Shown here: one piece after another, positions 2,304 through 4,241 of the stretch | How the letters are laid out: every line of letters starts with the position of its first letter | Numbering within the stretch: the stretch's first letter is position 1 | IMG/VR virus record: IMGVR_UViG_2713896736_000007 | Source: a virus | Taxonomy: Duplodnaviria > Heunggongvirae > Uroviricota > Caudoviricetes | DNA length: 6,219 nucleotides | Direction: 5' to 3' (one strand) | Notes under the pieces: model-generated | What the model saw: the letters and a program-made list of their open reading frames with translations, nothing else | What the model was told of the DNA's origin: nothing | The model's database searches: none | Translations under genes and position numbers: made by a program

Positions 2304-4241
2304 TCAGCCGCCGGACGCACTGCCGTAGTTCACTCCGGTGATCACCGCCACCGCCGCAGTACGGCGACGACGCCAGTTGATCCAGCGCTCCGCACGGATG
2401 GCCACGCTGCCTGTCTGGAACATGGAAACCAGCTCCACCGGGGACGGCGTGGTACTGTCGCCGCCCGGCTCAGACTGCATTTCCAGTGATGCCTCGCGGG
2501 ACATATCCACTGCCACGCCGCCGTCATCCGCCAGATAAATATCCGGGGCATTCACCAGCACCAGCTGGTCACCCACGTACTGGGAGACAATCACCGGCAG
2601 CCCCTGGAAGGAGCCACCCAGCAGGGTCATGTCCGGGTATTCCTTCTGACCCAGCGCATTTTTACGCATGGACAGTGCCAGGGCATTGGTGCTGGACATC
2701 AGCCAGACCGCACCGGTGGGCTGCAGGTTTGCTGCCACAAACTGTCCAAACGCAGCCTCGGCATCCGCATCCGGGTTACCGGTTGATGCCGTGCCCTTCA
2801 CATCATGGGTGATGGACGCCGGGGAGACATCTGCCACTGCGGCTTTTTTCGGGTCCACAAAGTCTGTATCCAGACGCGCCACCACCGCTTCCGCCAGCGC
2901 ATTACGGACCAGTGCATCAGCAGCCGGACTGGAAAAACGGATCAATTCTTCCGTCAGTACCGCAATGGCCGACACCTTCGCATGACTGAAGGTGATGGAT
3001 TCAAAATCAAACTTCGTCAGGGGTTTTGCCTTACCCTCACCCACCCAGCCGGCAGCACCGCCGGACACCTGGGCGTGCACACGGATATTGAACGGCACCT
3101 GACGAAGTGCAGGGATCCCGCCCTGACCAAATCGCCCGATAATGGTCTGCGGACGCAGGTAATCAATAAAGTCCTGTGCGTATTCCTGATATTCAGACAG
3201 GCTGCCTGCCCACTGCGGATCCGTGGTGGTCCCCGCGCCCACTGCCGATTTCAGGACATGATGCAGACGACTGTCATCCGGATACTGACGACGGGCCACT
3301 TCCAGGGCTTCAGATCGGACGCCTTTAGCCGCAGCCAGCGATTTGGCAAAGCGGGCGAAGCCAATCCCCTTATCCAGTTTCTGCTCCACACGGATCACCG
3401 GCGCAGAAGCCACCGCGGCCACATTCCCGTTACCGGCCTGTTTCACCGGCTGCGCCGTGGCGGCCTTACCGGCTTCCAGTTCACGCAGGCGCTTCAGGTG
3501 CGCATCCACCTGACGGATTTCCGCTGCGGTGTTGTCGTAATGCTCTTCCTCCTCCACATCCAGCGTGCGCCCTTCCTCTGCGGCTTTGGTCATGACCTCC
3601 TCAAGGGAGGCTGCCAGCGCTGCACGCTTGTTTTCAAAACTTTTAATCTGTTCGCCAATATTCATTATGGTCTTTTCCTTATGAAAAACGGTTGTTGACT
3701 GTGCCGCAGCGCCGGCAGAAGATGCGATTTTCACCACCGGTTTCCGGTTGCCGGACGCGGCAGAAAACGGGCGGTCGTAAGATTTAATGGTCCGGATGGT
3801 GCATTCCGCATTCGCGGGCACGGTGACGGCAGACACCTCCATCAGTTCCCAGCGCAGAAAATGCAGTCCGCCTCCGTCCAGAAAGGTGTATTCATGGGGA
3901 CGGAAGCCCACGGACAGCCCCCTGACCAGCCCGGTCTTAATGGCCGCCCAGACCTCATCCAGCCGGGCAGCCAGTTGCGACGGCATATCCGGTACGGGCT
4001 TCACCAGTGTTGCCGTGATTTCCAGCCCTTCGCTGACCCGGCGCACCGTACACTGCCCCACCGGGCGGGAATGGTCATGCTGCCAGAGAAACGGGATCGC
4101 ACTGCCAAACTCCGCGCCCTCCGGCTCCAGGATGTCACCATCCCGATCCGGAGAAGGCGTTGACGCAATCCCGGTGATCACCCGTTCATCCTCACTGAAG
4201 GATTTCACCGTCAGCAGGGAACAGGCCCGTTTAAGAGTCAC
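2304..4241 (-). CDS. single in-frame fusion: HK97-type prohead serine protease (Peptidase_S78/U35-like), helical scaffold/delta-like segment, HK97-fold major capsid protein (Phage_capsid-like)
   Basis: 645-aa ORF from the track. The N-terminal roughly 175 aa carry prohead-protease-like motifs (ITGIASTPSPDRDGDILEPEGA, IPFLWQHDH, WELMEVSAVTVPANAE). Residues from about 193 form a charged, helix-like stretch (MNIGEQIKSFENKRAALAASLEEVMTKAAEEGRTLDVEEEEHY...LKRLRELEAG). The C-terminal roughly 350 aa look like an HK97-family capsid protein (LTEELIRFSSPAADALVRNALAEAVVARLDTDFV...). Start is a GTG at 4241 preceded by AGGAGG with a 5-nt spacer. Confidence 0.9.
   Translation of the reverse strand: MTLKRACSLLTVKSFSEDERVITGIASTPSPDRDGDILEPEGAEFGSAIPFLWQHDHSRPVGQCTVRRVSEGLEITATLVKPVPDMPSQLAARLDEVWAAIKTGLVRGLSVGFRPHEYTFLDGGGLHFLRWELMEVSAVTVPANAECTIRTIKSYDRPFSAASGNRKPVVKIASSAGAAAQSTTVFHKEKTIMNIGEQIKSFENKRAALAASLEEVMTKAAEEGRTLDVEEEEHYDNTAAEIRQVDAHLKRLRELEAGKAATAQPVKQAGNGNVAAVASAPVIRVEQKLDKGIGFARFAKSLAAAKGVRSEALEVARRQYPDDSRLHHVLKSAVGAGTTTDPQWAGSLSEYQEYAQDFIDYLRPQTIIGRFGQGGIPALRQVPFNIRVHAQVSGGAAGWVGEGKAKPLTKFDFESITFSHAKVSAIAVLTEELIRFSSPAADALVRNALAEAVVARLDTDFVDPKKAAVADVSPASITHDVKGTASTGNPDADAEAAFGQFVAANLQPTGAVWLMSSTNALALSMRKNALGQKEYPDMTLLGGSFQGLPVIVSQYVGDQLVLVNAPDIYLADDGGVAVDMSREASLEMQSEPGGDSTTPSPVELVSMFQTGSVAIRAERWINWRRRRTAAVAVITGVNYGSASGG
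3663..3680 (-). promoter_or_regulatory. candidate internal ribosome-binding site and ATG (M193) inside the fusion ORF, at the protease/scaffold junction
   Basis: Minus strand reads cat-AAGGA-aaagaccata-ATG-aatattggc. AAGGA is at 3680..3676 and the in-frame ATG at 3665..3663, with a 10-nt spacer that is on the long side. The ATG sits exactly where a separate scaffold-plus-capsid polypeptide would begin. Confidence 0.3.

What the first reader, a model, noticed from the sequence alone, without database searches (positions are those of the whole stretch)
3663..3680. Possible internal translation start at M193 giving a scaffold-plus-capsid product alongside the full-length fusion
An AAGGA element sits 10 nt upstream of an in-frame ATG exactly at the protease/scaffold boundary (minus strand AAGGAaaagaccataATGaatattggc). 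If used, it would produce abundant capsid subunit from the internal start and a minor amount of protease-tethered subunit from the GTG at 4241. This would set protease stoichiometry in the same way nested or overlapping genes do in other phages. The spacer is long and this is an inference.
Basis: inference. Interest (0 to 1): 0.5.

Follow-up and report, generated by a model that had tools for sequence, protein, structure and literature searches.

The report
Hidden second start inside capsid gene
A 645-codon phage gene that fuses the capsid-trimming protease to the capsid protein carries a conserved ribosome-binding site and start codon at the domain boundary, so it very probably makes two proteins: the protease-tethered subunit and the plain scaffold-plus-capsid subunit.

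Summary
On the minus strand, AAGGA (3680-3676), a 10-nt spacer and an in-frame ATG (3665-3663, codon 193) sit in the 645-codon HK97-type protease/delta-domain/major-capsid gene (2304-4241) of an E. coli O157 lambdoid prophage. In this sequence alone the motif is no better than chance (SD -6.2 kcal/mol, rank 9 of 53 in-frame start-like codons). Comparison makes it convincing.

- 99 of 100 fused homologues (39-80% identity, gamma- and alpha-proteobacteria and viral contigs) keep an in-frame ATG, GTG or TTG at this boundary.
- The site has an SD in varying codon phases, a GC dip and weak local RNA folding.
- It is the most conserved start-plus-SD position in the gene, ahead of the annotated start.
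- 16 of 16 enteric homologues use the rare Gly codon GGA there.
- Relatives with separate protease and capsid genes start the capsid gene at exactly this Met with the same SD; some differ from the fused form by one stop codon.

Best reading: a nested in-frame gene, as in lambda C/Nu3 or herpesvirus UL26/UL26.5, except that the inner product is the capsid protein itself. Use of the start and the product ratio are inferred, not shown. The predicted excess of the short product is not supported by start-site strength in this window.

The parts
2304..4241 (-). Full-length ORF (645 aa, 69.0 kDa): HK97-family (S78) prohead protease, linker, delta (scaffolding) domain and HK97-fold major capsid protein. 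It starts at GTG 4241.
   Evidence: ORF list. Pfam PF04586 and PF05065. TIGR01554. Annotated 'phage major capsid protein' WP_000173030.1. Mass.
4247..4252 (-). Shine-Dalgarno AGGAGG of the annotated GTG start (5-nt spacer).
   Evidence: Sequence. Homologues have GGAGG 5-7 nt before an ATG here. SD energy -10.3 kcal/mol.
4263..4280 (-). Terminator-like hairpin followed by a T-run, between the TerL stop and the fusion gene's SD.
   Evidence: Terminator scan. CCCGC-N4-GCGGG-T6 is conserved in enteric homologues. Its function was not tested.
3783..4190 (-). Protease domain (residues 18-153).
   Evidence: AlphaFold pLDDT 85-94. Pfam S78 match at 48-152. H55 and S110 are invariant in alignment A1.
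3666..3782 (-). Disordered linker (residues 154-192). It doubles as the leader of the internal start and holds the strongest synonymous-site constraint of the whole gene.
   Evidence: pLDDT below 50. Normalised codon entropy is 0.06-0.28 here against a gene mean of 0.715 in 24 enteric ORFs. Nucleotide alignment.
3703..3716 (-). Nucleotide island GCCGGCGCTGCGGC (GCTGGCGCTACAGC in relatives). A possible 4-bp hairpin about 40 nt upstream of the internal ATG.
   Evidence: Nearly invariant, third codon positions included. RNAalifold keeps 4 pairs, and the only compensatory change (one pair) is in this window. This is weak evidence.
3676..3681 (-).
   Evidence: Sequence. SD energy -6.2 kcal/mol. An equivalent GGA/GGAG/GAGG motif lies 4-12 nt upstream of the boundary start codon in nearly all homologues.
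3663..3665 (-). Internal in-frame ATG, codon M193: the proposed initiation codon of the nested gene.
   Evidence: Conserved as ATG (94), GTG (4) or TTG (1) in 99 of 100 fused ORFs. It aligns to Met1 of stand-alone capsid genes.
2304..3665 (-). Proposed nested ORF (453 aa, 48.2 kDa): delta domain plus major capsid protein.
   Evidence: Inference from the conserved initiation site. Mass.
3366..3665 (-). Delta (scaffolding) domain, residues 193-292: helices 195-223 and 229-262, then a disordered stretch 266-284 that probably holds the maturation cleavage site.
   Evidence: AlphaFold secondary structure. Profile match of 196-267 to residues 4-75 of a 385-aa Major head protein.
2307..3365 (-). HK97-fold capsid shell domain (residues 293-645).
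   Evidence: Pfam PF05065 at 386-635. PDB profile hits to major capsid proteins. AlphaFold model.

Best explanation
The 645-codon gene is a nested, two-product gene. Ribosomes that start at GTG 4241 make protease-linker-delta-MCP (69 kDa). Ribosomes that bind the internal site (TAAGGA 3681-3676, ATG 3665) make delta-MCP (48 kDa), which is the ordinary HK97-type capsid precursor. The two share the whole assembly-competent part and would co-assemble into procapsids. The protease would then be delivered because it is covalently attached to a fraction of the subunits, and its copy number per shell would be set by the ratio of the two starts. After assembly the protease removes itself and the delta domains.

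Shown here: the gene architecture, and the conservation of a complete initiation signal (start codon, SD, AT-rich weakly folded context, synonymous constraint) at this boundary. Also shown: this site is the capsid gene start in split-gene relatives.

Inferred: that initiation occurs in the fused genes, that the two products co-assemble, and the ratio.
For: 1. Architecture. Pfam S78 plus Phage_capsid and TIGR01554 match. The AlphaFold model shows two folded modules joined by a disordered linker at 154-192, with M193 two residues before the first delta helix.

2. Split-gene relatives.
- Burkholderia phage vB_FUB47a has the same gene order with separate protease and MCP genes. Its MCP Met1 aligns to M193 (MTIAEKIKQ against MNIGEQIKS) behind TAAGGA-10 nt-ATG.
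- Snodgrassella prophages are also split.
- Viral contigs L066/L068, L073 and L078 are split in the same reading frame, with TAA or TAG abutting or 3 nt before the ATG.
- Stand-alone MCP representatives begin at query residue 193-196.

3. Conservation in fused genes.
- 99 of 100 fused ORFs have an in-frame ATG (94), GTG (4) or TTG (1) 4-7 codons before the conserved AEQI anchor.
- Among 145 fused cluster representatives, 131 have Met, 13 Val, 1 Leu and none Ile. Overall Met frequency is 2.4%.

4. SD strength. The median is -7.0 kcal/mol, and 41% are at or below -9 (for example GAGGAGGG or CAGGAGGG 5-8 nt upstream). Background in-frame start-like codons have a median of -2.5, with 0.5% at or below -9. 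Mann-Whitney p = 9e-49.

5. Position. This is the most conserved start-plus-SD position of the alignment (92% of 96 non-identical ORFs). The annotated start reaches 79% and the next internal site 48%.

6. Selection at nucleotide level.
- The GG core falls in all three codon phases (62/28/6).
- The Gly codon upstream of M193 is GGA in 16 of 16 enteric ORFs. GGA makes up 10.3% of Gly codons and never exceeds 22% in the 38 other conserved Gly columns.
- The strongest synonymous constraint of the gene lies in the ~130 nt up to and including the start (residues 152-195).

7. Context typical of initiation sites. GC within 30 nt either side is 47% against 60% for the gene (30% against 60% in this window). 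Local folding energy has z = +1.9 (+3.1 in this window).

8. Internal SDs of fused genes are at least as strong as those of the split MCP genes (-5.3 to -8.0).

9. The module works in a viable siphophage, phi330, with a 99.8% identical protein (PMC12502783).

10. Precedent. Nested protease/scaffold genes are known in lambda, HSV-1 and HFTV1 (bioRxiv 10.64898/2026.09.13.751334). HK97 proheads hold about 60 proteases per 415 MCP (PMC12749128).
Against: There is no experimental evidence of initiation at 3665 for this or any homologue in the literature I could search.

In this window the internal SD is at the weak end of the family (-6.2 kcal/mol, 10-nt real spacer), and in this one sequence it is not distinguishable from chance.

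The upstream start has the stronger SD, and a crude energy estimate favours it about 2.5-fold. An excess of the short product is therefore not predicted here.

Ribosomes elongating from the upstream start could occlude the internal site.

The homologous sequences are related. Only 28 clusters remain at 60% identity, and 22 of them have start plus SD at or below -5, so p-values computed over sequences overstate independence.

A weak protein motif ([KEQ]-[GE]) accompanies the SD and could contribute to its conservation.

A rough volume estimate of my own, not a tool result, suggests 415 extra 21-kDa domains could still fit inside a T=7 procapsid. The short product is therefore not a steric necessity.
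Confidence: 0.8

Rival explanations
1. Evolutionary relic. The SD and ATG are leftovers of the capsid gene's own start from before a protease-capsid gene fusion. They are not used today, and only the 69-kDa fusion is made.
For: Split-gene relatives show that the site was once an ordinary gene start. In this window the motif alone is no better than chance.
Against: The fused form is spread over gamma- and alpha-proteobacterial prophages and viral contigs at 39-80% protein identity, with synonymous sites elsewhere largely randomised (mean normalised codon entropy 0.715). An unused start would have decayed. Instead it is the best conserved start-plus-SD column of the gene. It shows rare-codon fixation (GGA 16 of 16). 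Replacements of Met are limited to the start-capable GTG and TTG.
Confidence: 0.07
2. Protein-level or elongation-level constraint. The conserved Met and the [K/E]-[G/E] dipeptide serve the polypeptide, for example as a protease self-release site or the delta-domain N-cap. Alternatively, the SD-like motif pauses elongating ribosomes so that the protease domain folds first. No internal initiation occurs.
For: A loose peptide pattern (PKP-E/Q-EG, KG, KE) accompanies the motif. The linker also holds a conserved AGA-T/S-A peptide. Another conserved SD-like site, at V578, is explained by a DDGG protein motif.
Against: The GG core sits in all three codon phases and encodes different residues (KE, KG, QG, EG, TG). 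The synonymous choice GGA is fixed. Met is replaced only by Val and Leu, never by Ile or Phe. In every locus where the DNA is held, those Val and Leu codons are GTG or TTG. The region is AT-rich and weakly folded, as initiation sites are. Stand-alone genes use the same signal to start. A pause model does not need a start codon.
Confidence: 0.08
3. Artefact or pseudogene. In this strain the long ORF is an accidental fusion (frameshift or lost stop) of two genes in a decaying prophage, so nothing about its expression is meaningful.
For: The neighbouring portal gene is annotated as frameshifted in the 100% identical genome. O157 carries many defective lambdoid prophages.
Against: The same 645-aa ORF occurs in 1243 of 5426 complete E. 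coli genomes at 80% or more coverage. It also occurs in Stx1a/Stx2c phages and the viable phage phi330 (PMC12502783), and in more than 100 clusters of 630-680-aa fused proteins.
Confidence: 0.02

Closest known systems
Phage lambda C/Nu3, HSV-1 UL26/UL26.5 and archaeal virus HFTV1 gp17/gp17.5 (nested in-frame protease/scaffold genes)
   Same: A long ORF with an N-terminal maturation protease. A second start in the same frame gives a shorter product that shares the C-terminal assembly part. The protease enters the procapsid because it carries the same assembly module. Stoichiometry is set by the two starts. Lambda has an SD before both starts (as described in bioRxiv 10.64898/2026.09.13.751334).
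   Different: In those systems the inner product is a separate scaffolding protein, and the capsid protein is a different gene. Here the inner product would be the capsid protein itself, with its built-in delta scaffold, so the protease would be tethered to a shell subunit. The protease here is S78/HK97-type by Pfam; that lambda C and the herpesvirus assemblin belong to other protease families is from general knowledge, not tested here. Expression of both products is demonstrated there and only inferred here.
HK97 gp4 (protease) and gp5 (delta domain plus MCP), separate genes
   Same: The same protease family, the same delta-domain-plus-HK97-fold capsid precursor and no separate scaffold. M193 corresponds to the initiator Met of a stand-alone MCP.
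   Different: From general knowledge, in HK97 the protease is a separate polypeptide that is targeted non-covalently by its C-terminal tail. About 60 copies accompany 415 MCP (PMC12749128). Here the two ORFs are joined in frame.
Salmonella phage Gifsy-2 tripartite capsid gene (Effantin et al. 2010, Virology 402:355; not readable here) and NCBIfam NF045541 'prohead protease/major capsid protein fusion protein'
   Same: A single gene encodes protease, scaffold-like middle part and MCP in a lambdoid enterobacterial phage.
   Different: The Gifsy-2 protease is ClpP-like rather than S78 (record annotation). The window protein scores 54 bits against NF045541, whose cut-off is 525, and matches only over residues 48-287. 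A GAGGAG-9 nt-ATG at M221 of the Gifsy-2 gene hints at the same trick, but I examined only that one sequence.
Actinobacteriophage 'capsid maturation protease and MCP fusion' genes (Microbacterium clusters EE and EL; Arthrobacter AN and others)
   Same: The same gene architecture is described as an annotation feature (PMC7302621).
   Different: They come from an unrelated host phylum. The papers I could read do not mention an internal start, and I did not examine their sequences.

Membership tests
Nested in-frame protease/scaffold gene pairs (lambda C/Nu3 type) | The long ORF begins with the capsid maturation protease. | tested here: met
   Pfam PF04586 at 34.7 bits against a cut-off of 21, residues 48-152. 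Folded domain at 18-153.
Nested in-frame protease/scaffold gene pairs (lambda C/Nu3 type) | A second, in-frame initiation site with its own ribosome-binding signal lies downstream of the protease domain. | tested here: met
   TAAGGA-10 nt-ATG at 3681-3663. The signal is conserved in 99 of 100 fused homologues, with SD, GC dip and synonymous constraint. The signal is shown; its use is inferred.
Nested in-frame protease/scaffold gene pairs (lambda C/Nu3 type) | The shorter product is the assembly scaffold. | tested here: inconclusive
   The shorter product would contain a delta-type scaffolding domain (helices 195-262), but fused to the MCP. It is scaffold plus shell protein, not a free scaffold.
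Nested in-frame protease/scaffold gene pairs (lambda C/Nu3 type) | Both polypeptides are detected in infected cells, with the shorter one in excess. | not testable with these tools
   No expression data are available. A crude initiation-energy estimate gives no excess for the short form in this window.
HK97-family major capsid protein with N-terminal delta domain | An HK97-fold shell domain is recognised by family models. | tested here: met
   TIGR01554 at 78.3 bits against a cut-off of 27.5, residues 204-584. PF05065 at 52.7 bits. PDB profile hits to major capsid proteins.
HK97-family major capsid protein with N-terminal delta domain | A helical N-terminal domain of about 100 residues precedes the shell domain and is removed by the protease. 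| tested here: inconclusive
   The helical domain at 195-262 followed by a disordered stretch at 266-284 is present and aligns to the N-terminus of a 385-aa Major head protein. Proteolytic removal was not testable.
HK97 family prohead protease (Peptidase S78) | The sequence reaches the curated family thresholds. | tested here: inconclusive
   It passes Pfam PF04586 (34.7 against 21) but is below the TIGR01543 equivalog cut-off (46.4 against 59).
HK97 family prohead protease (Peptidase S78) | Conserved catalytic His and Ser. | tested here: met
   H55 and S110 are invariant in 37 diverse homologues. Assigning them as the catalytic pair is an inference from the family, not tested.
NCBIfam NF045541 prohead protease/major capsid protein fusion protein | A full-length match above the curated cut-off of 525 bits. 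| tested here: not met
   54 bits, over residues 48-287 only. The architecture is the same but the family is different.
Gifsy-2-type tripartite capsid gene | A ClpP-like protease at the N-terminus. | tested here: not met
   The protease here is S78/HK97-type. The Gifsy-2 gene is annotated as a Clp protease.

The most novel reading that the evidence does not exclude
Every HK97-type protease/capsid fusion gene, here more than 100 sequence clusters in proteobacterial prophages including Stx phages, is really a two-protein nested gene. A minority of shell subunits carry the protease covalently, and the protease dose per capsid is set purely by the ratio of two ribosome-binding sites. Because the inner start never decays, lineages can flip between fused and split states by a single stop codon without disturbing capsid protein supply. 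The unusually strong synonymous constraint in the ~130 nt up to and including the inner start (residues 152-195) would then be an RNA element that tunes that ratio.
Probability: 0.45. Interest if true: 0.65.

Novelty: new variant of a known kind. Interest (0 to 1): 0.55.

Why it matters
Protease/capsid fusion genes are widely annotated as one protein ('phage major capsid protein', 645 aa). This includes 1243 of 5426 complete E. coli genomes and Stx-converting phages. If the inner start is used, the annotation misses the main capsid precursor.

It would also answer a standing question about these fusions: how such phages avoid packing one protease per subunit, when HK97 uses about 60 per 415. 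The mechanism would extend the nested-gene logic of lambda, herpesviruses and an archaeal virus to a case where the protease rides on the shell protein itself.

It explains why fused and split versions alternate freely in evolution. It also gives a simple, directly testable handle for engineering cargo loading into HK97-type capsids, namely two ribosome-binding sites.

Tried and rejected
- Single-sequence significance. The SD energy of the site ranks 9 of 53 in the ORF, so on its own it is not evidence.
- Internal promoter, as for UL26.5. No sigma-70-like site was found in 3500-4400. A separate transcript is therefore not supported, although only a simple consensus scan was run.
- Conserved RNA structure around the start. 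RNAalifold on 19 enteric sequences found only two tiny hairpins and essentially no covariation (covariation term -0.23 kcal/mol). The window's own fold is not unusual (z = -0.62). I rejected it as evidence and kept it as a note.
- Predicting the product ratio. A crude SD + spacing + start-codon + unfolding estimate gives -2.7 kcal/mol upstream against -0.6 internal in this window, but the internal start is stronger in 82% of homologues. The estimate is too crude, and the upstream starts in metagenomic sequences were chosen automatically, so I draw no conclusion.
- Solved structures. phmmer of the protein against PDB found nothing. Only the profile search gave distant capsid hits.
- Literature.
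  - Effantin 2010 (Gifsy-2) and Duda 2013 (HK97 protease) are not held.
  - Searches for an internal start in protease/capsid fusions returned nothing relevant except the HFTV1 preprint.
  - The phi330 paper has virion mass spectrometry but reports no peptide map for this protein. Mature virions would in any case lack the delta domain.
  - The N-terminomics paper PMC13245402 does not cover phage genes.
- I considered the V578 site (84% start plus SD). It is explained by a conserved DDGG peptide.
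Full report
**What the window is.** The 6219-bp window is 100% identical to a lambdoid prophage of E. coli O157. At least 80% of it is present in 1243 of 5426 complete E. coli genomes. The minus strand carries the head module:
- terminase small subunit, running off the right edge;
- terminase large subunit, 4305-5966;
- a 645-codon ORF at 2304-4241, annotated 'phage major capsid protein';
- a 73-codon ORF at 2038-2259;
- a long portal ORF that runs off the left edge.

The same protein (99.8% identical) is encoded by the viable Stx2a siphophage vB_EcoS_phi330, genus Pankowvirus, which has a 55-nm head (PMC12502783).

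**The gene.**
- Pfam finds Peptidase_S78 (HK97-type prohead protease) at residues 48-152 and Phage_capsid at 386-635.
- NCBIfam finds the HK97 major capsid equivalog at 204-584.
- An AlphaFold model built on 37 diverse homologues (mean pLDDT 80) shows five segments: a protease domain at 18-153, a disordered linker at 154-192, two long helices at 195-223 and 229-262, a second disordered stretch at 266-284, and the capsid fold from 293.
- A profile of the family aligns residues 196-267 to residues 4-75 of a stand-alone 385-aa 'Major head protein' in PDB.

The architecture is therefore protease, linker, delta (scaffolding) domain, HK97-fold shell domain.

**The observation.** On the minus strand the sequence reads cat-AAGGA-aaagaccata-ATG-aatattggc. 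AAGGA is at 3680-3676, and the ATG at 3665-3663 is codon 193 of the ORF. With the preceding T the motif is TAAGGA. M193 lies two residues before the first delta helix. Taken alone the site is unremarkable: its SD:anti-SD energy (-6.2 kcal/mol) ranks 9th among the 53 in-frame ATG/GTG/TTG codons of the ORF.

**Split-gene relatives.**
- Burkholderia phage vB_FUB47a has the same gene order, but its protease and capsid genes are separate. Its capsid Met1 aligns exactly to M193 (38% identity over the whole capsid part). It is preceded by caaTAAGGAttccttacgcATG, the same TAAGGA-10 nt-ATG, with the protease stop codon overlapping the SD.
- Snodgrassella prophages are also split.
- In viral contigs L066/L068, L073 and L078 the two genes are in the same frame and differ from the fused form only by a TAA or TAG abutting or 3 nt before the ATG.
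- Several stand-alone capsid proteins among the cluster representatives begin at query residue 193-196.

The site is therefore a genuine gene start in part of the family, and fused and split states interconvert.

**Fused relatives.** I collected 25 fused loci from bacterial genomes and 80 loci from viral contigs. Most of these carry the fused gene; 32-80% is the identity range over all 109 loci, and the fused ones span 39-80% across gamma- and alpha-proteobacteria. I also collected 145 fused cluster representatives.
- 99 of 100 fused ORFs have an in-frame ATG (94), GTG (4) or TTG (1) 4-7 codons before the conserved AEQI motif. The exception has an SD plus ATG a few codons further upstream.
- Among the 145 fused representatives the residue is Met in 131, Val in 13 and Leu in 1, against an overall Met frequency of 2.4%.
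- The upstream SD has a median energy of -7.0 kcal/mol, and 41% are at or below -9, with GAGGAGGG or CAGGAGGG 5-8 nt from the ATG. All other in-frame start-like codons have a median of -2.5, with 0.5% at or below -9. Mann-Whitney p = 9e-49.
- Column by column, this is the best conserved start-plus-SD position of the alignment: 92% of 96 non-identical ORFs, ahead of the annotated start (79%) and the next internal site (48%) (for the first 25).
- After single-linkage clustering at 60% identity, 28 clusters remain. Every cluster's majority boundary codon is a start codon (25 ATG, 3 GTG), and 22 have an SD at or below -5.

**Is the conservation at nucleotide or protein level?**
- The GG core of the SD falls in all three codon phases (62/28/6). 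It encodes KE, KG, QG, EG or TG in different lineages.
- In the 16 enteric ORFs that have Gly there, the codon is always GGA. GGA is 10.3% of 825 Gly codons and never exceeds 22% in the 38 other conserved Gly columns. The window and one relative instead have AAG GAA, the same AAGGA in another phase.
- The lowest synonymous diversity in the whole gene lies at residues 152-195, the ~130 nt up to and including the internal ATG. Normalised codon entropy there is 0.06-0.28, against a mean of 0.715 and a first percentile of 0.21.
- The region within 30 nt either side of the start is AT-rich (47% GC against 60%; 30% against 60% in this window). It also folds weakly (z = +1.9; +3.1 in this window).

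Together these are the four usual marks of a bacterial initiation region: a start codon, an SD, low local structure and constraint on silent sites.

**Mechanism.** The best-supported reading is a nested in-frame gene. The upstream start (SD AGGAGG at 4252-4247, 5-nt spacer, GTG 4241) gives the protease-tethered subunit. The internal start gives the ordinary delta-MCP precursor. Both can enter capsomers, so the protease would be packaged by covalent attachment to some subunits and its dose would be set by the two starts. This is the logic of lambda C/Nu3, HSV-1 UL26/UL26.5 and the recently profiled HFTV1 gp17/gp17.5 (bioRxiv 10.64898/2026.09.13.751334). The difference is that the inner product here is the shell protein itself. 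HK97 packages about 60 proteases per 415 MCP (PMC12749128), which gives a reason to expect a sub-stoichiometric fusion.

The steps from 'signal conserved' to 'both made, co-assembled, short form in excess' are inference. In this window the upstream SD is stronger, and a crude energy estimate favours the upstream start about 2.5-fold. Across the family the internal start comes out stronger in 82% of cases. The estimate is too rough to rely on. The long spacer is a smaller problem than it seems. TAAGGA pairs with the 3' end of the anti-SD, so the aligned spacing is about 7 nt, and a stand-alone capsid gene uses the same geometry.

**Rivals.**
- An unused relic would not survive divergence to 39% identity with rare-codon fixation.
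- A purely protein-level or pausing role does not explain the shifting codon phase. Nor does it explain why Met is replaced only by Val or Leu, which are GTG or TTG wherever the DNA is held, or the AT-rich context.
- A strain-specific artefact is excluded by the wide distribution.
- No internal promoter-like site and no convincing conserved RNA structure were found.

**Novelty.** Protease/scaffold/capsid fusions are known as an annotation feature, for example in Microbacterium and Arthrobacter phages (PMC7302621) and in Gifsy-2 (Effantin 2010, not readable here). Nested protease/scaffold genes are classical. In the searchable library I found no description of a conserved internal start that gives the capsid protein from inside a protease/capsid fusion. 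Two key subscription papers could not be read, so prior mention cannot be excluded. I rate it a new variant of a known kind, of moderate interest. The evidence is strong and general, the logic is unsurprising to a capsid-assembly specialist, and it is directly testable.

Noticed in passing
window 4253-4280 (minus strand): A terminator-like hairpin (GAACCGC-TGCG-GCGGTT) with a T-run lies between the TerL stop codon and the SD of the fusion gene. The arrangement CCCGC-N4-GCGGG-T6 followed directly by GGAGG is conserved in enteric homologues. It could attenuate or structure the late transcript just ahead of the capsid gene.
   Followed up: partly
window 3703-3716 and 3750-3761 (minus strand): Two nucleotide islands in the disordered linker (GCT GGC GCT ACA GCA and GCC GCG TCA GGC in relatives) are almost invariant, third codon positions included, across 24 enteric ORFs. 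The first can form a 4-bp hairpin, and the window keeps it through a compensatory change in one of its pairs. They may tune the internal start, mark a recombination joint or be a cleavage-site motif (AGATA). This is unresolved.
   Followed up: partly
window 135-565: A 162-nt tandem repeat (2.7 copies, 95% matches) lies inside the long minus-strand ORF that continues the portal gene, giving a 54-aa repeat in the protein.
   Followed up: no
window 2-2107 (minus strand): The portal ORF is open for 702 codons up to the window edge. The ORF tool does not list it because it runs off the end. PGAP calls the portal 'frameshifted' in the 100% identical genome. Phage phi330 annotates a 445-aa portal plus a separate 376-aa protein. 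The portal region therefore differs in state between copies, and this prophage copy may be defective.
   Followed up: partly
L113 (Gifsy-2, NC_010393) 8472-10562, codon 221: The Gifsy-2 tripartite ClpP-like protease/scaffold/capsid gene has GAGGAG-9 nt-ATG at M221, just after the protease domain, with a local GC dip (0.41 against 0.525). This looks like a possible analogous internal start, but only this one sequence was examined.
   Followed up: partly
L066 1392-1397, L078 1467-1472, L073 about 1425-1433: Viral-contig relatives have the protease and capsid ORFs in the same frame, separated only by a TAA or TAG abutting the capsid ATG, or 3 nt before it in L073. They are one mutation away from the fused state.
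   Followed up: yes
window 2038-2259 (minus strand): A small 73-codon ORF between the capsid and portal genes has no family match. A small ORF occupies the same position in phi330 and in the distant Burkholderia phage vB_FUB47a, so it may be a conserved head-module component of unknown role; I did not compare the sequences.
   Followed up: no
window 4239-4241: The annotated start of the fusion gene is GTG in this prophage. Almost all homologues, including those about 77% identical, use ATG behind the same GGAGG. This would lower full-length output in this lineage.
   Followed up: partly
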